From Owenia fusiformis (taxonomy: Eukaryota), in NCBI GenBank assembly GCA_903813345.2, contig CAIIXF020000001.1:3968001-4032000 (forward strand): 64,000 bases of DNA, given 5' to 3'. Below, in pieces: positions 14,817-32,400 of the stretch. Position 1 is the first letter of the stretch; each line of letters starts with the position of its first letter. The translations under genes and the position numbers were made by a program. The notes under the pieces were generated by a model that worked only from the letters and a program-made list of their open reading frames with translations, had not been told where the DNA came from and did no database searches.

Positions 14817-16429
14817 CACATAAAAATAATCAATTATTACAAGGATTATACTGTTTGCATCTAAGCAATTTCACCATATATTGTCATTAAAGCTATATTT
14901 CACCAAAGCATCTTTTAATTTACACTTTAACCATTTCTCTTTTCAAATATATATGCAATGTTCATAGGGGCATCAGCATATGGTAAAACAAATAGCAAAA
15001 ATATTTCTAGCGTTATTTAATTATTTTGTGACATCATTTGGTTGCTCTGGGTTCATCACCAAATTTTGACAGATAAAGTATATATAAATACATAATTTAA
15101 ACAGAAGTTTGATAAAATCATAAGACAATTTTAATTGCCATTACTATTTAGTTTAAAAATATTTAAGCAACTCTAGAGGAAATATCTATTTATTTGCTTT
15201 AGGCATTCAAAAAACTTGAAACTACAAAGTTATTTCCTTTGCCTTTACTCTAAAAATTATGATTGGATTCTAGGTGTACATTGAATCTGTACATTGAATC
15301 TTTTAAGTAGTTTGAGTCTTATCCACTGAAATCACAATCTCAGTATATCATTAATACCATGTTGTTTTTTAATCAGTATTTACCAAGAATATATTTACAA
15401 GATGTGTCACCAAACTGTAGTAATGAGACGAATGGCTCAAACAATCATTCAAAGTAAAAAAAAATCAGATGTGAAGTTTGTAAAAATTCATGTTTATCCA
15501 GAGAATGTATGTTATGCAACACAACCAATTAAACCTATTATAAATTCCAATTGTAATGAAAGCAAAAATATTGCAAAAATTCAAAATTGTAACTTACCAA
15601 GATTATAAAAGCCAAGTGACAGCTTATATGTATGTACATGTCTATCAAGTATATCCTATTGTAATAATAGTCAATTTATGGCAAATGCTCCCAAGCTTAT
15701 TAAAGCAAATATGCTCACATGCTACAGCTTATTTCTAACTGTACTAAAATCTATTGCACAAATATATAACTGTCGTGAAATCTATTCCACCGTAGGCAGT
15801 TATTTCGAGAATCACTTCTCTTTCATTATATTCATTAATATTCAATTACTAATGACTGAATTCGCCAGCATAAGTCATCTAAAAGCAGATGCCTACACCT
15901 AAGGGAGCTATATAATGGTGATGTCTAGTAGCAAATCCCATCAAGCTTTTAATAAGTACCAGATTAGCACACAAGACATATTGCCACAAGATATTTTGTC
16001 ATTCTTGCACATATTTACATAAAAAATATTGACAAAATCATTCGATCACTTTTCAAACTACAACGTAAAATGTAAAATAATTATTAACACATATAAAAAA
16101 TGGCCTCCATTTTTCAAAATAGCCAACATATTGAGCAATATGAAACAATGTCTCACACTTTTAATGTAAAATGAAGGGATGCTATTTTTCAAAAAGGAAG
16201 TTTTCAAAAGAAAATGTATTCACACATTTATTTACAAGCAAAATTGTCATAAGACAGTGTGATCCTGCACAATGTCAACAAATTCCCTAAAACTACATGT
16301 ATGTCTTTCAAGTAACAGCAAAAAATGTATAGATGTATAGACCACGGTGTATAACCCAAACGCTCCTACATGCACGACGGAGCGTTTCATAACTGAAATT
16401 AAACAAAGAAACGCTCCGGAGTAGGAAAA

Positions 16430-16976
16430 CTGGCTGGCGGGAATGATGAGCCGTCTGACGATTTCCCCAATAATGGGAATAAGAGGTATGAGTTACATAT
16501 TTTCGAGTATACCATTCGATGGATGTGATATTCATGTTGTACTTGGCTGGCTGTTGACGTTTGAAGCAATTAGGAAGAGCTGTACGAAGCAGTATAGATA
16601 TCAAAATCCAAAAACGTATTTGTCATTCTACTGGTCAAAACCCATTTTGTCGTTACATGTGATTAGTTGAGCCAAGATTAGAGCACCAACGTATATTTTA
16701 GTCAAATTCCAATGCTTCAACGCACCATACATTATCGTAATAGTGATATGATGACCGAAAATCCAGTCTTAAAAATGATGACATTCTCATATTCAAGAAA
16801 CGCTCCAATCTGGTTAACAAAGTGAACTGGAAACGCTCCGGTAGTCTAGATCTGTTTAGGAAATATATAGCTTGACTTTCCTTTTCAGGAAGAGAAAGAA
16901 ATTAAGATCTATTAAACCCCTTGGCATCAAAAGAAGAAAGATTCATTCACATATTAATTTTCGTTTTTTTCTATAG
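16430..16976 (+). pseudogene. Left-end spliced ORF remnant of the Transib/RAG-like element (basic, NLS-like N-terminus)
   Basis: Exon 16430-16485 (CTG in aaaaCTGGC context; AGGNDEPSDDFPNNGNK), AG|gtatga donor, ttccttttcag acceptor at 16888, exon 16889-16976 continuing in frame RKRKKLRSIKPLGIKRRKIHSH... to a stop. Confidence 0.45.
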
Positions 16977-17028
16977 TTTTATGATCTAGCACACATGTAG
17001 GCATGACATCATCTAATGTAGGCTTAAA

Positions 17029-17509
17029 TCAGCTAGTTGCACGTTTAGCACCACCAGGTTCAGATGTCTTAATTTGCCTAACAAGTACAACACGTGTATG
17101 AGAGATAGATTCGATTCGGAACTCTTCTCTAATAATCTGAAAATGATATAAAAAAGTAACAAACAAGCGATTTCTTGAGAATAAGTAATGGATTTGGACT
17201 GGGAATTTAAGAAATGAGAATATACGAGTTTGTGATCTACTACTTTAAGAGAAATATTAACGTTTTCATAGAAATACTAGTTTAATTCGTAATTTGTGGT
17301 CAATTCGTCATCTTCAGATTCCTTCGATCTACACTACGGAGCTTTGATCAAGCAAATAACAGTTTACCACCAGAAGTTGAATAAATAAGATCTTTGCTCA
17401 CCGTATTGTTCATCGAATGGTACATAATATTTCACCAAAACATATGATATGTAAGAGAAACGAGAGAAACAATACTTACGGTCATAGTGGAGTCTTCATT
17501 AGCCGCCAT
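17029..17509 (-). pseudogene. Right-end spliced ORF remnant of the Transib/RAG-like element
   Basis: aaaATGGCG start, exon 17480-17509 (MAANEDSTMT), gtaagt donor, ttttcag acceptor ending at 17137, exon from 17136 in frame IIREEFRIESISHTRVVLVRQIKTSEPGGAKRATS*; frame stays open for FKPTLDDVMPTCVLDH after the TGA. Confidence 0.55.
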
Positions 17510-19400
17510 TTTATTTCGCTCCGGAGCGTTTCCGCGTAAATGAAACGCTCCGTCGTGCATGTAGGAGCGTTTGGGTTATACACCGTGTAGACAGACCAAT
17601 GATGGATCAATTTAGGATCAATTTATCAATGGGATAATTATTTTTCTTACTAGAAGTGCACTAAATGTATAATATATAATATCATTGAAAATTTAATTTA
17701 ATGTCAAATAGTTCGATTTAGCAGGAAATCAACAAGCAAAGTTTATCATCATGAAATTGGGTTTCCGGTGTTTATTGTGGCGATATCCTCCTGTTATTCA
17801 TTTTGCCAATATATATCAAATTTATTTTTTAATGTTATTATTATACATTTAGTACACTAAGTGTAGGATAACTCTTTAGTCCAAGAACAGGTAGTTATTA
17901 AAAGTGAATTACTGAAGAGGACTAATCAGTTCCATTTTCATAATACTCATAACTTAAGAGACACACTAATGGGAGGAATCTCCCAATACACACCACTCAT
18001 CTACTGATTACTATTGAATTCCTGAGTACATTAAGCTCACCAAATTAGAAGTATTGTCCCACTTATTCCCCGAGGTGTATTGATCAGTTTTTCTCTGTTT
18101 GTTTACAAATATAAAATGCTATCATTTTCCTGTTTTGATGTTTCCCCTTACCAATTGCACTTAACCAGAAAATTGTCTCTAGCTAAAACCATGGCAACAG
18201 TTAAATTCAATTATAATACAAATTCAAATAGATATAGGAAAGACCAAAAAACACAATGCATAATCTAAAAGAGTGGCCCCTCTGGGAATAGAACATGTGA
18301 CAGTTAACGACAAGGTGTCATATTTGTTTTCACAAATCTACCAAAAAGTGGTATAAGCCACCCAAAGGGGCTTCTTAAAAACCATTCTTTATCCATATAA
18401 TTCTAGAATGCATATAATTCCATATATTCTAGAATGCAATAAATGTGAGTATTGGTACTTTTTAATGATTAGATTAAATGGAAGAACTGTGATAAAATAA
18501 AACATCTTTTATCTCATGCTGTTTTCATCCTATGATTCCAATAACTATAGACAAGAAGAGATTATTTAAGAATGTTTAATGGAAAATCGTGATTCCTAGT
18601 GTCCATTAAGTTTTGCTAAGTAAATAGTAAGCAATTACTAGATTCTGCAAGTAGAAAATGGAATATCCATAAAACATCATAAATGAAATCCTTAGAATGT
18701 AGTGGGTGATGATAGCCTTGACACAAAAATTGCACACCTTGTCTAAGTGATAAAAACAAAGATTTTCATTCGCTCAAGGATTTATGAAATCGAGTTCATC
18801 CTGTTCATACATATGGAAACATATCCTTGTTGTTGTTATGGTTACAAGATATGAGTTATAAAAAAATAGGGCACACTTATATTGATCTATCAAGACAATT
18901 TTTGGTAGTATGAGTCATTATACACAATGAAATAATAATATTTTCCCACTGATTCATGATATTCAAAGTTATTAATATTTTTATCAAGATTACCTGATGA
19001 GATAACTAATAAAATGATTAAACATAGTGCCTCTTCTCTTTATCTTCCTGTCAGTCAATTGCTTAATAGGATTTTAGATGAGAATATTTTCCCAGACATC
19101 TGGAAAGAAGGCACTGTCATTCCAATATCTAAGAAAGGGGAAAGAGGTACAATATGTAATTATAGACCACTGACCCTCTTATGTAGTTTTTCTAAAATAT
19201 TGGAAAGGATCATTCATAAAAGACTTCTTCTCCACTTGCTAGAAAATAATTGATTATACAAATTTCAAAGTGGCTTTTTACCAAAACATAATACAGTGAA
19301 TCAACTTATACATATTGTTTATGACCTTCATACGAACATCAATAATGGGAAAAATGTGCGTTCCATATTTCTTGATCTCATGTCAGCGTTTGACCTAGTT

Positions 19401-21554
19401 TGACCTAGACCTGGACATTCATAAAGCTACTGGCCCCGACCTTATTTCTAATCACATGTTAAAACTCACAGCTCATACTCTAGCCCAACCACTATCCACA
19501 CTCTTCAACATCATGTTATCCAAAGGTGTATTCCCATCTACGTGGAAACTAGCAAATGTATGTCCTATATTCAAGAAAAACGATAAATGTAACATTAACA
19601 ACTATAGACCAATAGCCCTCTTGAGTACTATTTCTAAATTACTTGAAAAGATCATTGCAAATCGAATAACAAAACATCTCCTTTCTAATGACCTCCTTTT
19701 CAAATACCAATCTGGCTTCCTCCCTGGCCACAGCACTCAATCTCAACTAGCAGCAATTGAACATTACCTACAAGACAATATAAATAACAAGAAATCTGTA
19801 AAAACTATCTTTTTAGACATTGCTTCTGCATTTGACCGTGTCCCCCACACTTTACTATTACACAAACTAAAAGCTTATGGCATAAGGGGCATGCTACTCA
19901 AACTACTCAAAAATTACTTACTAGATCGCAGAATAAAGGTTAACATATCTGGCATATCCTCTAACATATCCGACCCACACTTTATCAACTGTGGCGTTCC
20001 CCAAGGCTCAATCATTGGTCCCATATTGTTCCTAGTATATATAAATGACTTACCTGATAACCTAGACTCCAAATGTTTCATATATGCTGACGACACCTCA
20101 ATATATTTCCCCTTTGACCCAAATAGCCCTAGTGATATTGATCAGACTGTTGCTCGTAATCTCCTTGCTATTGAAAATTGGTCACTTACTTGGAAATTAA
20201 CATTTAAACCTGAAAAAAGCTTTGAACTTATTTTCCACAGTTCCAGAACCAATAATGTAAATATAAATCACTCAAACCTTTTCAACCAAGTTATTCAGAG
20301 AGTACCAAGTCACAAACATCTGGGATATGTCTTTGACCAACTCCTATCAAATAAAGACCACATCTTAGGTCTTCGAAATAAAATTACCAAACTCACAAAT
20401 CCCCTTAAAGCCCTCAAATCTAAACTGACATCTTCTCACTTGGAAACACTTTTTAAGTCCTACATTCTCCCACACTTTGACAATGGATCACTTCTTTTTG
20501 ACTCATCTTCCAAGTATTTACTTGGATATCTAAATAGTGCCTACTATCAATGTGCTCTTATCTGTTCAGGTTGTCTACCAGGAACCAGCACAACTAAAGT
20601 TCTTAACATATTAAATTGGCCAAGCCTAGAAACTAGACGAAAACTCCAAATTAACAACTTCATGTTCAATGTTAGTAAAGGTACATCTCCACCATACATA
20701 AACGATATTTTTGATAAGTTTCGATGTGATACTCAAAGAGAACTACGACATACTCGCCCCTTTAGGCTACCCAACCATGCCACTACTAAATACCTGAACT
20801 CCTGCATACCAAATGCAATCTCCCATTGGCTATCTGTACCAAAGAATATTCAAACAAGTAAAACCCTCATTGCCTTTAAGAACAACAATCGCAAGCACCT
20901 TCTCAACCTTGACATAAACATAATCCCTACCTCAATGCTAAATATTTCTAGAAATGAAGAAACACTTATTAATAGGTTTAGGGTAGACCTGCTCTTCAGG
21001 GCTCAACTCTTTGCCCACAATTACACCTTCATCAGCTCTCCTAATTGTTCTTGTGGTCTACCCGAAACTCCAAAACACTTCTTTTTTCACTGCCCTCTGA
21101 ATGAAAATGCAAGAACCATCTTTTTCAATACTCTCTATACTGAAACTCCTTTGATCCCCACTAACCAATCCACACTTTTAGAATACCTAGCCTTTGGCAA
21201 TCATAATTTTAGCAAGGATGAAAACACAAAAATCTTTACTCTGACTTCTACCTTTATTAAGAGATGGCTTACCCCATATTGAACAAGACTGAAGAAGACT
21301 ATCTTAGAACCTATTGTACCCTGCCTTGTCATGCAAATATAAATTACATTGTCCCTCTGCCCTGTATTTCCCCCAGTCCCAGCCCAGCTCAGACCCCCCC
21401 CCCCCCTTCCACCCCTCTTCATCTTTTTCCCCGCTTGGCTAGAGTGCTTATAATGCCAAAATGGTGATTAGCACTTGAATATGCTCTCTTGTATTTACTA
21501 TATTACCCCATGTACATCTATTTTTTTATAAATAAATAAAAAAAAAAAAAAAAA
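19401..21554 (+). mobile_element. 5'-truncated CR1/L2-like non-LTR retrotransposon with uninterrupted RT ORF and poly(A) tail
   Basis: ORF 19456-21282; poly(A) to ~21554; TSD acctagtt at 19393-19400 and 21555-21562. Confidence 0.92.
19456..21282 (+). CDS. LINE ORF2 reverse transcriptase (5'-truncated, no endonuclease domain)
   Basis: NYRPIALL, QSGF, FLDIASAFDRV, GVPQGSIIGP, YADD motifs; C-terminal CSCG...ETPKHFFFHC zinc-knuckle-like motif. Confidence 0.9.
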   Translation: MLKLTAHTLAQPLSTLFNIMLSKGVFPSTWKLANVCPIFKKNDKCNINNYRPIALLSTISKLLEKIIANRITKHLLSNDLLFKYQSGFLPGHSTQSQLAAIEHYLQDNINNKKSVKTIFLDIASAFDRVPHTLLLHKLKAYGIRGMLLKLLKNYLLDRRIKVNISGISSNISDPHFINCGVPQGSIIGPILFLVYINDLPDNLDSKCFIYADDTSIYFPFDPNSPSDIDQTVARNLLAIENWSLTWKLTFKPEKSFELIFHSSRTNNVNINHSNLFNQVIQRVPSHKHLGYVFDQLLSNKDHILGLRNKITKLTNPLKALKSKLTSSHLETLFKSYILPHFDNGSLLFDSSSKYLLGYLNSAYYQCALICSGCLPGTSTTKVLNILNWPSLETRRKLQINNFMFNVSKGTSPPYINDIFDKFRCDTQRELRHTRPFRLPNHATTKYLNSCIPNAISHWLSVPKNIQTSKTLIAFKNNNRKHLLNLDINIIPTSMLNISRNEETLINRFRVDLLFRAQLFAHNYTFISSPNCSCGLPETPKHFFFHCPLNENARTIFFNTLYTETPLIPTNQSTLLEYLAFGNHNFSKDENTKIFTLTSTFIKRWLTPY

Positions 21555-26401: not shown

Positions 26402-29400
26402 TCACTTGTCATCCCCATGTTCCCTCTTATTAATAACATCATGTTCAAACTGACTTCCAGTATCAAGTTCACCATTAAGCTCTTCATGATGACGCCCAAG
26501 GCTCTCCAAATCATCCTGGCTTCCCAGATCTTGTTGACTGCCTATAATTCTCTCACTTGCAAAGTCGCTCTGGCTCCCAATATATTGGTCAATGCCAAGG
26601 TGGGTCTGACTGGCAATCATTGCCATGGATTGTTTAGGGCTATCATCAAGGTATGGATGACTCTCTTCATCTTCCATGTGCATGTCATCATTGTCAGGTA
26701 CAATCTCTTGTTGGGAGTTCTCACTATTTGGCTCAACATCTTTACTAGGACTGAAATTATTAACTAAAGCTTAACTACTTAACTAATAATTAGAGACAAT
26801 ACAGTTAGTTCAGTTAGTTTATTATGATTGTAATTGAAAGCTGAGTCAACTCACCTCTTCATCATGTACCAGACAGCAATCCCTAAAAGTCCAAGCCCAA
26901 CCAGGGAACATGCAACAGCTATGGCTATAGTGACAGGGGATGGTCCATTTGTAGAGACAGCACCATTGTTGTCTTTTTTATCTTCTTGGACGCCTGGAGA
27001 CAATGTGTAGGATGTTATCTGGGATGATAGCTCATCTTCTCCAATGTTCTCAAGGTTCTAAATAACAGAAAAGGGTTAACTGAACATTACAAGGCATAAC
27101 ATGATAGACATCAATGACTTAAATAAATAGTACCATGGGTACACGGCTCACATGGTGTACTTTCTTTTGAGAGATATTTATATTAATTTATTTATTTAAA
27201 GACAGCTGTTGAACCTATGAAAGCCATGTTTAGACTTAGGATTGAATGACCAGCCTTTAAAATGAGGTACATCTATAATTTGGAGCACATTGACGGAACA
27301 TTTTTTAGACTTAACCAAAAACATGATTGTTTGGCACGAAAAGTGATATTTTGTCAATCAATATTAACTTCTTTAAATCTATGTGATCTATCTTATCAAA
27401 ACTTGTAGATATTATTGTTAACTTATAAATTAAGGTGCGTACAATTTCAAGCAAATCATTGAATCCATTGGGAGTTATGACCAAAGAAATGAAAACATGA
27501 TATTTCAACAATAAAAGCAATGTCCATTATTAATTTCATTGCGTATCACCAAAAATTCCCTACACAATTGTTAACCTATACACTATGCTACACGTACCTG
27601 TATGATTTCATTCAAATCAATGCAATACTTTTTGATTTATAACATACAGAAAGTGATATTTTGATAATAAATGTGGCAGCCATTTCAAATCTGAGCAAGA
27701 TAGATGTATTTTCTCGAAACTTGCGTTAGCCTATACAATAAAGGATCGTAGCTGTACAATTTCAAGAAAATTAATAGAATACATTTTGAGTTATGACCAA
27801 AAGGATCTGAAAACATGTTTTTTCAGCATTAAAGTCATGCCTGGTAATCATTTCAAGTAGAAACAATTGAAATATAATAAAAAATGAGATATTGGAGAAA
27901 TATGATATAGTTTTAACAGTTCACACCAAATTTATGATAAATGTAGCTACCCTGACCTTTGGAGATATCAGGCTGTTGTGTCGATCCAATTGATTATTAC
28001 ATTACTTGTTTTATAAATGCAGACACATTAATCAAAAAGATTATTAAATTGAGGGATGGGGTCAGTTGTTTAAAACTGGAATAAACTGCAAAAGAAAAAT
28101 AATTAAATATATTGTCAAAACAAAAAATTGGAAGAACTGTCAGGGCAAAGATATATTGTCAAGACTGTAAAGACAAAATGATGGAATAAACTCTCAAAAA
28201 AAGAATTGAATAAACTGTCAAGACAAAGAAGAAGAATAGAGAGTTGAGGTAAAAATGGAAGAAAATAAAAATCAGGACAACAAGAATGGCTTCAAAATGA
28301 GCAGAATAGAACCGAGAGTTTCTATTTGTATCTGTATATCCTTACTATTCCTATGTGGATTTATTTTCATGACATATCAAAATCAAACCTTCCAAAATTC
28401 ATTTGAAAATTTAAATGAAAATGGACAGTATTTTGATCTGAAGCCTTTAATGAAACCAATGAATAAAGAACAATCTAAAACACTGATAGGTCTCAGTGTA
28501 AAACAAAAAAAGCCTGTAGTGAATCAGGAAAAGTCCAACAAGCCTCAAAAGCATCAAAACATCGCAACAAATGAATATTTAACAAAACGACCTAAATATA
28601 TGGAGGGAGATGTACCTGTTGGGAAAGTGGAGAAGCTACCAGGGGTTATCCTTATTGGCATTCAGAAGTGTGGAACAGCAGCCCTTAAATCTTACTTAAG
28701 AATTCATCCAAGCATGATAAGTGGCAAAAAACATGAGACTCATTTCTTTGACAGACAAATCAATCACAATCAGCCATTTGAAGAAGAAATGAAAATATAT
28801 ATGGAAGAGTTTCCCAAAGTGTTACCAAATAAAACTGTCTTTGAGAAAACCCCTGCATACTTTGACTTAGCGGACCCCTATGACCTCTACAGAATGAACT
28901 CTACATTGAAGCTGATCTTACTGGTTTGTGACCCTGTAAGGAGAGTGATATCAGCTTATATGCACAATAAAGCACATGGAAGGTATGCAAAAGATAAATC
29001 ATATGAAGATTACATATTTGACAAAGATGGACGAGTTAATACAACAGCGCAGGTTATCATCAGAAGTAGGTATGACAAATCACTAGAAAGATACTTAAAA
29101 TATTTCCCTATAAATCAATTTTTAATAATTGATAACAAATTCTTACTGAATCAGCCTACTTTAGCCATGCAAGACATTGAGAAGTTCCTAGGTTTAAATA
29201 AATTTTATACCAAAGAGACATTTTATTTCAATGAGACTATTGGCTTCCATTGTATTAACCCTTCCATTCAGCCAGTTAATGGGGGATGTATGAAGGGTAA
29301 TAAACACAGAGTTCATCCTAATGTTAGTGAAGAAAATGTATTAAAACTCCAACAGTTCTTTCAACCAATCAATGACAAGTTTATGAAACTCGCAGGTACA

Positions 29401-32400
29401 AGTATGCCATCATTAAAGTATTTCAAATAAAGCACAAAAATCTATCAGGTGTAAAATGGAGTATGGAAAAAATTAGATTCAAAGATTGTTCATCAGCTCT
29501 GGCATTCAATATAGGGCCTAATGATAAAATCTGGCCCAATAAATGGAGTTTTGATGATTTTTCCTCATAAAACATGTTGTAGTGTCATAGTATCACTCCA
29601 TTATGTTGGATCTACAAGAGGTATGAGGCCACATACATAATGAACATCAGTTTGGAATCTAAACACTGAACCAACCTGACATGGCCCATTTCTAGGCCAT
29701 TTAGAATATGAAGTCAAAGGACACTTAGAATAATCACTTCAAGTATGATGTCAAAGGACACTTCCATTGCCTCTCAAAAGCGATGTCAAAGAACACTTGG
29801 AATCCCTCTGAAATATGGTGTTGAAGTTGAAATACCACACTTGAAAGTGTGCAAGTGCTTTCAAAAGATCGCTGTTGAACCTCGAAGGCCATGTTTAGAC
29901 TGAAGATTGAAAGTTTAACCTTAAAATGAGGTACATACTGTATACATAATTTCAAGCATGCTGATTGAACATTTTAGACCTATAACCAATATGGGCCAAA
30001 ATGTGATTTTTTGACAGGAAAAGTGATGGCAATCATTTGCCAAAACTTTTAGACATTATTGGTTACCTGCAACCAATTGATGCAATACTTAAAGATTCAT
30101 AAAGCAAAAAGTGGATATTTCGAAAATAAAGTGTTGGCCACATTAAATCTTCGCTATCTATTTTGTTGAAACTTGTAGGCATTATTGTTAACCTATCAAA
30201 TATATGCCTGTACTATTTTAAGAGAATTAGAATTCTCATGGACTAATGACCAAAAAGCTGAATTTTCGGGATATTTCAAAAATAAATGATGGCCATGTTG
30301 AATCTTTGCAACATATTTTGCCAAAAATTGTAGGCAGAAATCAGCGTACTAACTGTGGTAAAAAATGGTTTGACAAGAATTGCGTATCCTTGAAAAAAGA
30401 CGTACGACGTCTTGGTTCGCGTTTAGTTAAAATGCCAAATAATTGCGAAATTAGAACTCAGTATTTTATGACACTAAAGAAATATAGAAAACTTTGCAAG
30501 AAAAAAACAATGTGAACAAAAAATCAAATTTTAACAAAACTGGATGAGTATTCAAACACTGATTCAAAAGCATACTGGTCGTTACTTGAACAGCTTAGAA
30601 ATGAGTCCAGTTCTACAGATTCTAATAATCAGAATAGTAATATAACACCTGATACTTGGTACAATCATTTCCCTAAGCTATTTCAAAGGGTGGAGTCTGA
30701 TGATCTAGATCATGAACATCTTTTAAGAATATTGGAAGCTGAGCCAGAATTCAATGAGTTAAATTATACAATAAAAGAAAATGAAATATTTGAAGCGGTT
30801 AAAATGTTAAAAAACAACAAAAGTCCTGGTTTAAATGGTATATCCTATGAAATACTAAAGGCTTCTTATTTTGCGATAGGGAACTTACTATGCACATTAT
30901 TCAATAAAATATTCATCAGCGATTCCTACCCAGATAGATGGAATTTGTTGGTGGTAATTCCAATATTCAAAAAAGGTGATAGATCTGATCCTAGCAACAA
31001 TAGGGGTATATTTATATCTGATTCAATATCTAAATTACTTTCAATAGTACTGTATAGACGATTGTATAAATTTGTTGAAGATAGGAAAATCCTCAGCGAC
31101 AACCAAGGCGGTTTTGTTAAGAAAGCACGTACCACTGATCATAAGTTTATCCTCAAATCGTTAATGGACAAGTTTAAATCCGATGACAAAAATAAAAGTT
31201 TATATTTATGCTTCGTTGATCTGCGCAAAGCATTTGATAGTATATGGCACAATGGTCTATTTCATAAGTTACAAACATATGGAATCAAGGGTTACTTCTA
31301 CAATATTATAAAATCGATGTTTACGGATCAACACGCGTGCATTAGACTTAATAATTGTGGTGATTACTCACCTACGTTTAAATGTGAAAAAGGTGTGAAA
31401 CAAGGCGACCCTTTAAGTCCCTTACTTTTTAATCTATACATTGATCATATTGTTAACGAGCTTAGTCTGAAAACTGATCCATTACTATATTCAGAAAAGA
31501 TAGGTTCATTACTTTTTGCTGATGACCTAGTTATAATTGCTTCCTCGAAAGAAGACATGCAAGTCAAGTTAGACAAACTCAAGAAATACTGCGAACGGTG
31601 GTATCTCTCTATTAACATTAAGAAAACAAAAATCATGAAGATAACTAAAACAGGGAAAATAAGTAATGAATCTTTTCATATTGGAAATATACTATTTGAA
31701 AATGGTAGTAGATACATTTCTCTGGGAATGGAAATCAGTTCCAACGGGTCTTTAATACCAGCGGCCCAGTTTATAAAACAAAAGGCGTACAAAGCAAAGT
31801 TTAAATTGTTCTCTTTACTGTCTAATGCTGATATAATGCCAAAATTGGCAATTAAAATATTTGACCAAACTGTCAAACCAATATGTATGTATGGAGCAGA
31901 AATATGGGGAACCGGCTATCTTAATAATAGAATTATCAAAACTGATCCTAAATGGGCACTAGAAAATTCGTATGACAAGATCAAAATTGAGTCAACCCAT
32001 ATGTCGTTCCTAAGATTTGTGTTGGGTGTACATAAGAAAGCTAGTAACTTGGGAAATAAAGGCGAATTGGTGAGACTACCTTTATTCGTTGATATTATCC
32101 CCCAACAAGTTAAATTTGTCAATCACTTAGAAAATCACTCTTCAAAGTTTATAAGAGATACACTAAAACTAAGTAAATCTTTGGCCAATAGTAATCAGCC
32201 TTCTTGGTATAATGACTTGCTAAAAGTACTCAAATTTATAGGTTTTCATGATTATCATAATGTCAACACTAAGAAATTAAAATCTAGGCTTAAAGAAGAT
32301 ACAAACAATACTTTGAAAACATGCTTAAAGATACCAATGGCAAATTAAGGTTTTATAGACAAATCAAATTTTCATTTCATTATGAAAATTATCTTGACCA

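What the first reader, a model, noticed from the sequence alone, without database searches (positions are those of the whole stretch)
16338..17592. Candidate RAG-like/Transib two-gene transposon: RSS-heptamer-like termini, 5-bp TSD and two convergent spliced gene stubs
Seen: a 1245-bp element with perfect 48-bp TIRs beginning CACGGTG (one mismatch from the RSS heptamer CACAGTG) and an exact 5-bp duplication TAGAC; 3- and 4-bp TSDs do not fit. Each end carries an inward-reading short exon, a canonical intron and an in-frame second exon. Left (+): 16430-16485/16889-16976, (M)AGGNDEPSDDFPNNGNKRKRKKLRSIKPLGIKRRK. Right (-): 17509-17480/17136-17029, MAANEDSTMTIIREEFRIESISHTRVVLVRQIKTSEPGGAKRATS*FKPTLDDVMP. 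The two stubs collide near 16960-16980, as expected after a large internal deletion. Established: CAC...GTG termini with 5-bp TSD characterise the Transib/RAG superfamily; Transib has one gene, whereas ProtoRAG/RAGL elements have RAG1L and RAG2L tail-to-tail with introns. Inference: this is a young deletion derivative of a two-gene element, either RAG1L-RAG2L or a Transib carrying an undescribed partner gene. No RAG1 core or kelch motif is visible, so the gene identities are not established.
Basis: partly seen in the sequence, partly recalled or inferred. Interest (0 to 1): 0.88.

Follow-up and report, generated by a model that had tools for sequence, protein, structure and literature searches.

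The report
Non-autonomous Transib-type transposon in an annelid
This is a 1.2-kb gene-less DNA transposon copy with RAG/Transib-style ends and a proven 5-base target duplication, from a very abundant and recently mobile family in a marine worm; the proposed pair of RAG-like gene remnants is not supported.

Summary
The physical observation holds. The element at 16343-17587 has perfect 48-nt inverted ends starting CACGGTG. It is flanked by TAGAC on both sides. A public DNA contig of the same species joins 16337 directly to 17588 with one TAGAC. That is an empty allele, so the 5-bp duplication is proven and the insertion is polymorphic.

The element belongs to a very abundant family. In one DNA run 5419 contig pieces were laid, and reads from other copies leave the sequence exactly at 16343 and 17587.

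The "two spliced gene stubs" are not supported:
- The left one has no ATG, and the right one stops after 45 codons.
- Such GT..AG in-frame models arise in 204 of 300 random sequences.
- RNA depth is flat across the proposed introns.
- No protein, Pfam family or PDB chain matches the frames.
- The ends match the protostome RAGL end consensus in only 5 of 17 positions.

Best reading: a non-autonomous cut-and-paste element, most likely of the Transib superfamily, moved in trans by an unseen transposase. That enzyme would recognise the heptamer and eight copies of AAACGCTCC. The host is most likely the annelid Owenia fusiformis. The autonomous parent could not be reached, because no genome is held.

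The parts
16338..16342 (.). left copy of the 5-bp target site duplication, TAGAC
   Evidence: Sequence. The empty-site contig in X1 joins 16337 to 17588, with 5 letters that fit either side.
16343..17587 (.). whole non-autonomous element, 1245 bp, 37% G+C
   Evidence: RNA reads of other copies leave the sequence exactly at 16343 (61 reads) and 17587 (48 reads), with low-agreement flanks.
16343..16390 (+). left terminal inverted repeat, 48 nt. It holds the heptamer CACGGTG (16343-16349) and a 9-mer pair, AAACGCTCC and GGAGCGTTT, 12 nt apart.
   Evidence: The single strand of 16343-16425 folds at -13.5 kcal/mol, z = -3.67.
17540..17587 (-). right terminal inverted repeat, 48 nt, a perfect complement of the left one
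16409..16417 (+). third left-end 9-mer, AAACGCTCC, 21 nt inside the TIR 9-mer pair
17523..17531 (-). third right-end 9-mer, 11 nt inside the TIR 9-mer pair. This gives a 10-bp asymmetry between the two ends.
   Evidence: No insertion or deletion at 10% of reads or more is listed in either spacer (table 4).
16798..16839 (+). two internal copies of the 9-mer (16798-16806 and 16831-16839)
   Evidence: The 9-mer occurs 8 times in the element and 0 times elsewhere in the 64 kb.
16908..17267 (.). variable central segment, nearly absent from the diverged relatives in run X24
   Evidence: X24 depth is 1.7-7.8 here, against 20-78 in all but one bin of the arms (the bin 16404-16475 has 4.6).
17155..17160 (.). 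breakpoint against a longer family variant. About half of the reads carry other sequence between 17154 and 17161.
   Evidence: Loose ends lie behind 17154 (71 X21 reads, agreement 0.97) and before 17161 (66 reads, 0.95), and are also seen in X1 and X4. Both loose consensus ends contain GAGCGTTTC.
17588..17592 (.). right copy of the 5-bp target site duplication, TAGAC
It has an ATG in good context and a GTAAGT donor, but only 45 codons. Judged not a gene.
   Evidence: RNA depth is flat over the 'intron'.
It has no ATG. Judged not a gene.
   Evidence: A 1-bp deletion at 16964 is seen in 39 of 160 RNA reads.

Best explanation
The element is a non-autonomous (MITE-like, 1245 bp) cut-and-paste DNA transposon of a very abundant, recently mobile family. 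The host genome is most likely that of the annelid Owenia fusiformis. The element encodes nothing.

It is moved in trans by a DDE transposase made elsewhere in the genome, most likely of the Transib superfamily. Inferred steps:
1. The enzyme cuts at the CAC of the terminal heptamer CACGGTG.
2. It is positioned by the AAACGCTCC 9-mers, three at each end. The first two form an inverted pair inside the 48-bp TIR. The third lies 21 nt inside on the left and 11 nt inside on the right.
3. It integrates with a 5-bp stagger.

Shown here: the ends, the exact 5-bp duplication, the empty allele, the multiplicity of copies, the internal deletion variants, and the lack of coding signal.

Inferred: the superfamily of the transposase, the binding role of the 9-mers, and any role of the 10-bp asymmetry.
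For: - Ends: perfect 48-nt TIRs, unique in the window.
- Heptamer: matches the RSS heptamer in 6 of 7 positions and the Transib consensus heptamer in 5 of 7.
- TSD: exactly 5 bp, with an empty-site contig in X1. Its depth of 62.3 equals the depth of the flank. In X4, a contig of 1109 letters runs from the flank into the element, 15900-16370.
- Literature passages read: Transib was described as the only eukaryotic superfamily with 5-bp TSDs, with CAC invariant at the ends (PMC1131882). CMC elements make 2-4 bp TSDs (bioRxiv 10.64898/2026.08.26.747230).
- Family size: in X1, 5419 contig pieces were laid. Summed word depth is about 1e5 to 3e5 over the element, against 62-88 on the unique flanks. 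The tool warns that this is not a copy number.
- Exact ends across copies: loose ends at exactly 16343 and 17587 have flank agreement of only 0.48 and 0.44.
- Deletion variants: 12 of the 15 joints shown are internal skips within the element. Six of them are larger than 200 bp, each seen in one X1 contig, as expected from abortive gap repair.
- Binding-site candidates: the 9-mer occurs 8 times in the element and 0 times elsewhere in the window.
- No coding signal.
- Host context: the Owenia genome paper reports 43% repeats, largely DNA transposons (passages).
Against: - No transposase was seen, so the superfamily rests on end features only. A 2026 preprint shows that TSD length and end sequence vary even within Transib and should not override transposase homology.
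- There is no A-rich nonamer at 12, 22 or 23 bp from the heptamer: 1 to 3 matches of 9.
- The TSD has 2 of 5 G+C, and the consensus flanks of other copies are AT-rich. Transib and RAG targets are described as GC-rich.
- Multiple subterminal repeats are, from my recall, also typical of CACTA-type elements.
- Only one TSD could be measured.
- Raw DNA reads of run X24, which carries the same species label, give far lower depth: 20-78 on the arms against about 1-4 on the flanks. Of the 1295 reads laid, 1275 fit only in part. Abundance and sequence therefore differ between samples.
Confidence: 0.65

Rival explanations
1. One reading: a deletion derivative of a two-gene element (RAG1L-RAG2L, or a Transib with a partner gene). 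On this view the two ends still carry the first exons of two convergent genes.
For: - CAC...GTG ends and a 5-bp TSD are shared with RAGL transposons (passages of PMC7204232).
- The right stub has an ATG in good context 79 nt from the end and a GTAAGT donor.
- A longer variant with unknown content exists at 17154/17161.
- Non-autonomous RAGL elements are reported in a pearl oyster and in several deuterostomes.
Against: - The left stub has no ATG, and the right one has a stop after 45 codons.
- Models of this kind arise by chance in 204 of 300 random sequences.
- The right frame has 0 hits among 1.84 billion representative proteins and no hit among longer proteins for either stub frame.
- Nine of the 10 frames tested have no Pfam family. 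The tenth has only DUF4820 at E 0.13.
- No RAG1, RAG2 or Transib chain appears in the PDB searches.
- RNA depth is 115-160 in every full bin, exons and introns alike. No RNA joint at 16485/16889 or 17480/17136 is among the 15 joints shown; 27 were not shown.
- The TIR fits the protostome RAGL consensus at 5 of 17 positions. Of 100000 random 17-mers starting with CAC, 99676 do as well or better.
- RAGL non-autonomous copies are described as few, whereas this family is very abundant.
Confidence: 0.04
2. A non-autonomous element of another superfamily whose transposase happens to make 5-bp duplications. Candidates are a CACTA/Mirage/Chapaev relative or a lineage not yet described.
For: - CAC termini and several subterminal repeats are also CMC-like (recalled).
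- CMC and Transib transposases are related.
- TSD length and end sequence are evolutionarily labile.
- There is no Transib-type nonamer.
- The target is AT-rich.
Against: - The CMC range of TSDs is given as 2-4 bp, and here the TSD is exactly 5 bp, proven by the empty site.
- The end reads CACGG, not CACTA.
Confidence: 0.25
3. The right stub alone is genuine. On this view it is the first exon, intron and start of the second exon of the single transposase gene of the parent, retained in the deletion derivative. This is compatible with a one-gene Transib parent.
For: - The ATG lies in good context, followed by a consensus donor, just inside the last 9-mer.
- Deletion derivatives usually keep the parent's subterminal parts.
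- The breakpoint at 17154/17161 lies 18-25 nt from the proposed acceptor.
Against: - No homologue in any search.
- Bulk RNA is unspliced, and the stronger strand signal is first mate on the minus strand. In most stranded libraries that means plus-strand RNA, which is antisense to this stub.
- 'Exon 2' lies in the segment that is least conserved in the X24 relatives.
- Chance expectation is high.
Confidence: 0.1

Closest known systems
Non-autonomous Transib elements (Transib-N families of insects and sea urchin; Hopper/Kodama of Drosophila)
   Same: 5'-CAC...GTG-3' ends with an RSS-like heptamer, a 5-bp TSD, no transposase gene, internal-deletion variants, and far more copies than any autonomous partner.
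   Different: - No A-rich nonamer at 12 or 23 bp.
- A long 48-bp perfect TIR built round a GC-rich 9-mer repeated three times per end.
- An AT-rich target.
- An annelid host. No paper in the searched library joins the words annelid, RAG1-like and Transib. The 13 papers that hold Transib and annelid were seen as a listing only.
- The parent is unknown.
RAGL / ProtoRAG transposons and their non-autonomous derivatives
   Same: CAC ends and a 5-bp TSD. A sequence next to the heptamer matters for recognition there too (TR2).
   Different: - The end matches the protostome consensus CACTWMCAAACKTYKBB at 5 of 17 positions, which is chance level.
- There is no trace of RAG1L or RAG2L sequence.
- The family is very abundant, whereas RAGL derivatives are few.
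CACTA/Mirage/Chapaev (CMC) elements
   Same: CAC at the very end and several subterminal repeats (recalled). Their transposases are the nearest relatives of Transib.
   Different: TSD of 2-4 bp against exactly 5 bp here. CACTA against CACGG.
V(D)J recombination signal sequences
   Same: Heptamer identical in 6 of 7 positions. The third 9-mer lies 10 bp further in at one end than at the other, which recalls 12/23 asymmetry.
   Different: No nonamer. The two ends are identical for 48 bp. This is a mobile element, not a recombination signal. Any role for the asymmetry is untested.

Membership tests
Transib superfamily | Transposase with a RAG1-core-like DDE domain (the decisive criterion) | not testable with these tools
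   No genome is held for the window. No copy was found in the other collections. The element itself has no matching frame.
Transib superfamily | 5-bp target site duplication | tested here: met
   TAGAC on both sides, exactly 5 bp, plus an empty-site contig. Only one insertion was measured.
Transib superfamily | Ends 5'-CAC...GTG-3' with a CACAATG-like heptamer | tested here: met
   CACGGTG matches the Transib consensus in 5 of 7 positions and the RSS in 6 of 7. CAC is present.
Transib superfamily | A-rich nonamer about 23 (or 12) bp from the heptamer | tested here: not met
   1-3 matches of 9 at spacers of 12, 22 and 23. Passages on HzTransib say its TIRs also have little or no nonamer similarity, so this feature is not universal.
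Transib superfamily | GC-rich target preference | tested here: inconclusive
   The TSD has 2 of 5 G+C. Consensus flanks of other copies are AT-rich, but agreement is only 0.44-0.48.
RAGL (RAG-like) transposons | Convergent RAG1L and RAG2L genes between the TIRs | tested here: not met
   This copy has no frame with any RAG1, RAG2 or kelch/PHD similarity. The stubs are within chance. The parent could not be examined.
RAGL (RAG-like) transposons | TIR fitting the protostome RAGL consensus (CACTWMC, then AAA at positions 8-10) | tested here: not met
   5 of 17 positions, chance level. Positions 8-10 read TAT (consensus from passages of PMC7204232).
RAGL (RAG-like) transposons | 5-bp TSD | tested here: met
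CMC (CACTA/Mirage/Chapaev) | 2-4 bp TSD | tested here: not met
   Exactly 5 bp; 3 and 4 bp do not fit. The range comes from passages read.
Non-autonomous / MITE-like DNA transposon | TIRs and TSD, no transposase gene, many copies with exact shared ends | tested here: met
   At 1245 bp it is longer than classical MITEs (from recall, usually under about 800 bp).

The most novel reading that the evidence does not exclude
The family is driven by a still active Transib/RAG1-type transposase in an annelid. On this reading, its end recognition uses a heptamer plus a GC-rich 9-mer in place of the A-rich nonamer. The 11 against 21 nt spacing of the third 9-mer at the two ends would then act as a 12/23-like pairing rule. 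A parent with a second, RAG2L-like gene is not excluded, but I put it at 0.05 or less.
Probability: 0.12. Interest if true: 0.7.

Novelty: new member of a known kind. Interest (0 to 1): 0.3.

Why it matters
As it stands, this is an ordinary non-autonomous DNA transposon and says nothing new about the origin of RAG1-RAG2.

Its value is practical:
- It has perfect ends and a proven 5-bp duplication.
- An empty allele is still segregating.
- The family is very large.

Together these mark a family that moved recently in a slowly evolving annelid genome. The 48-bp end is a precise bait for finding the transposase in the chromosome-level assembly.

If that enzyme is Transib-like, it would give a natural heptamer-plus-9-mer substrate with asymmetric ends to compare with HzTransib, ProtoRAG and RAG.

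Tried and rejected
- Own genome: not held.
A second request sent in the same turn returned a form error.
- Sequencing-run search: no RNA holder listed among the indexed runs. RNA was examined instead by laying raw-read run X21.
- Other copies elsewhere:
  - The 24-nt end probe gave 0 matches in metagenome contigs and genome contigs.
  - A heptamer plus 9-mer pattern with free spacers gave 0 in metagenome contigs and viral contigs.
  - blastn of the element against the window found only itself and its own TIRs.
  - A scan for other CAC-ended inverted repeats with a 5-bp TSD found none in the window.
- Protein searches:
  - The right frame of 35 aa was too short. It was resent as the 71-aa stop-to-stop frame. 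92 word-sharing candidates were found, none at E of 1 or below.
  - The exhaustive HMMER search gave 0 hits.
  - The left 41-aa frame had no candidate.
  - Pfam on 10 frames gave only DUF4820 at E 0.13.
  - PDB gave only an E 1.8 match to a yeast splicing factor for the right frame and nothing for the 81-aa left frame 16425-16667.
  - These blanks are weak evidence. The Owenia annotation removed 5,779 models overlapping repeats and 2,450 TE-like models.
- Papers:
  - CACGGTG with Transib: 0 papers.
  - CACGGTG alone: 4,214 papers, with no transposon paper among the 25 listed.
  - Owenia fusiformis with Transib: 1 paper, on Kolobok, seen as listing and abstract start only.
  - annelid with RAG1-like and Transib: 0 papers.
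  - PMC11292947 passages gave nothing on TE families.
- Recall not verified: I recall that the HzTransib TIR starts with the same heptamer, but I could not check it.
- Material not seen that could bear on family assignment: the TIR lists of PMC7204232 (Additional files 8, 9), the figures of PMC1131882, and the Owenia repeat tables.
- Hypotheses rejected: hAT, because a supplementary-figure legend in PMC1131882 says the third base of hAT ends is always G. From recalled TSD lengths and end sequences only: PIF/Harbinger, Tc1/mariner, piggyBac, Kolobok, P, Mutator and Polinton.
Full report
**Observation**

The window between 16343 and 17587 holds a 1245-bp element. Its 48-nt ends, 16343-16390 and 17540-17587, are perfectly complementary. 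A 24-nt probe of the end occurs only at these two places in the 64 kb, against 0.00 expected from shuffles. blastn of the element against the window finds only itself.

The ends read CACGGTG...CACCGTG. The five bases TAGAC stand at 16338-16342 and at 17588-17592. The next bases outward and inward differ, so the repeat is exactly 5 bp, and 3 or 4 bp cannot be fitted.

**Independent proof of the duplication and of mobility**

No genome is held for the window. I therefore laid four public runs of the same species label on 15900-18050, at 90% likeness or more.

- In DNA run X1, a contig of 1068 letters lies on 15900-16337 with its letters 31-467. The tool reports a joint from 16337 to 17588 that skips 1250 bases, with 30 letters on the far side and 5 letters that fit either side. 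This is the unoccupied site with one TAGAC.
- The depth of that contig (62.3) equals the depth of the X1 flank.
- In run X4, a contig of 1109 letters runs from 15900 to 16370, into the element.
- The insertion is therefore polymorphic between samples, and the 5-bp TSD is real.

**The family**

- In X1, 5419 contig pieces were laid: 1724 at 99% or more, 1933 at 95-99% and 1762 at 90-95%.
- Summed word depth is about 1e5 to 3.2e5 over the whole element, against 62-88 on the unique flanks. The tool warns that this is not a copy number.
- In RNA run X21, 61 reads leave the sequence just before 16343 and 48 just behind 17587. Flank agreement is only 0.48 and 0.44. Many copies in different places therefore share exactly these ends.
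- Depth is similar over arms and interior, so the 1.2-kb form is the standard form of the family, not a unique deletion product.
- Twelve of the 15 joints shown are internal skips within the element. Six of them are larger than 200 bp, each seen in one X1 contig. A further 27 joints were not shown.
- A longer variant also exists. Behind 17154 (71 X21 reads, agreement 0.97) and before 17161 (66 reads, 0.95), about half of the reads continue into other sequence that again contains GAGCGTTTC. X1 and X4 show the same.
- The raw DNA reads of X24 behave differently. 1295 reads were laid, and 1275 fit only in part. Depth is 20-78 on all but one bin of the arms (4.6 in bin 16404-16475), but 1.7-7.8 over 16908-17267. 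That sample carries diverged relatives that share the arms and not the centre.

**End architecture**

The 9-mer AAACGCTCC occurs 8 times in the element and nowhere else in the window.

- At each end it lies at positions 16-24 and, inverted, at 37-45. Both are inside the TIR.
- A third copy lies at 67-75 from the left end and 57-65 from the right end.
- Two more copies lie inside, at 16798 and 16831.
- The spacer before the third copy is 21 nt on the left and 11 nt on the right.
- No insertion or deletion at 10% of reads or more is listed in either spacer (table 4).
- The left 83 nt fold well as a single strand (z = -3.67).

I take the 9-mers to be transposase binding sites. That is inference.

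**The gene stubs**

- The left model begins at CTG, and the right model ends at TGA after 45 codons.
- In 300 random sequences of the same first-order composition, 204 had at least one ATG-started, GT..AG, in-frame two-exon model at a given end. All 300 had one when no ATG was required.
- The 71-aa frame holding the right 'exon 2' has no hit among longer proteins and none at E of 0.001 or below among 1.84 billion representatives.
- The left 41-aa frame has no candidate.
- Of ten frames of the element, nine give no Pfam family. The tenth gives only DUF4820 at E 0.13.
- The right frame gives only an E 1.8 match to a yeast splicing factor in the PDB. The 81-aa left frame 16425-16667 gives none.
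- RNA depth in X21 is 115-160 in every full bin of the element, 'introns' and 'exons' alike.
- No place where many molecules begin or end is reported.
- None of the 15 joints shown is an RNA joint at 16485/16889 or 17480/17136. 27 joints were not shown, and only about 6% of the run was read, so a rare spliced transcript cannot be excluded.
- In the X24 relatives, left exon 1, left exon 2 and right exon 2 fall in the least conserved bins, and the 'introns' fall in the best conserved ones. That is the reverse of what coding exons would show.

**Host**

A sulfotransferase ORF of the window (28255-29430) has its only named relatives in Owenia fusiformis, at 51-59% identity. The window's own protein sits on a contig of 62,201,769 bases, the same length as the contig of one of those proteins. 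The window is therefore most likely from that annelid.

Passages of its genome paper state the following:
- The assembly is 505.8 Mb with 43% repeats, largely DNA transposons.
- Gene models overlapping repeats (5,779) or resembling TEs (2,450) were removed.

The absence of a transposase among named proteins is therefore uninformative.

**Comparison with known families**

- Passages of PMC1131882 describe Transib as the only eukaryotic superfamily with 5-bp TSDs. Its invariant end is CAC, and its consensus is CACAATG, a 23-bp spacer, then AAAAAAATC.
- Passages of PMC7204232 give the protostome RAGL TIR consensus CACTWMCAAACKTYKBB, invariably 5-bp TSDs, and only a small number of non-autonomous derivatives.
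- Passages of a 2026 preprint give 2-4 bp for CMC elements. They warn that TSD and TIR features vary within Transib and should not override transposase homology.
- The present end matches the RSS heptamer in 6 of 7 positions and the Transib heptamer in 5 of 7. It has no nonamer (1-3 of 9).
- It matches the RAGL consensus in 5 of 17 positions. Of 100000 random 17-mers beginning with CAC, 99676 do as well or better.

**Verdict**

This is a non-autonomous, recently mobile, very abundant DNA transposon. I assign it to the Transib superfamily with about 0.65 confidence, on end features alone. The RAG-like two-gene reading is unsupported (about 0.04).

The parent transposase is the missing piece, and it can be found with a simple search of the assembly.

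Noticed in passing
window 17782-17871 (within 17630-17883): A short, very abundant repeat lies next to the element. Depth is about 320 in X24 and 170 in X21. Sharp loose ends lie before 17781/17782 and behind 17871. It sits inside an imperfect 45-nt inverted repeat, 17630-17674 and 17839-17883, 73% complementary. It is probably part of another small transposon.
   Followed up: partly
window 16044-16187: A moderately repeated segment lies upstream of the insertion site. X1 summed depth is about 1e4 to 2e4, against 62-88 on unique sequence. Two X1 contigs skip 106-113 bases at 16120-16234.
   Followed up: no
window 19456-21282 and 30690-32348: Two long ORFs on the plus strand (608 and 552 aa) carry reverse transcriptase domains: RVT_1 at E 1e-35 and 1e-33. 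They are retroelement copies a few kb from the transposon.
   Followed up: no
window 28255-29430: An intronless 391-aa sulfotransferase ORF has several Owenia fusiformis paralogues at 51-59% identity on three different chromosome-sized contigs. This is an expanded family.
   Followed up: partly
window 16343-17587, runs X1/X21 against X24: Runs under the same species label differ strongly in this family. X1 and X21 have abundant near-identical copies. X24 has only partial matches at 90-95% likeness that lack the centre. This may reflect population or cryptic-species differences.
   Followed up: no
window 16620-17555: RNA reads over the element show a strand bias of about 3 to 1 (first mate on the minus strand 100-127, on the plus strand 16-52). 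The left 280 bases are less biased, roughly 1:1 to 2:3. The cause is unknown. An internal promoter or preferred orientation in host transcripts was not tested.
   Followed up: no
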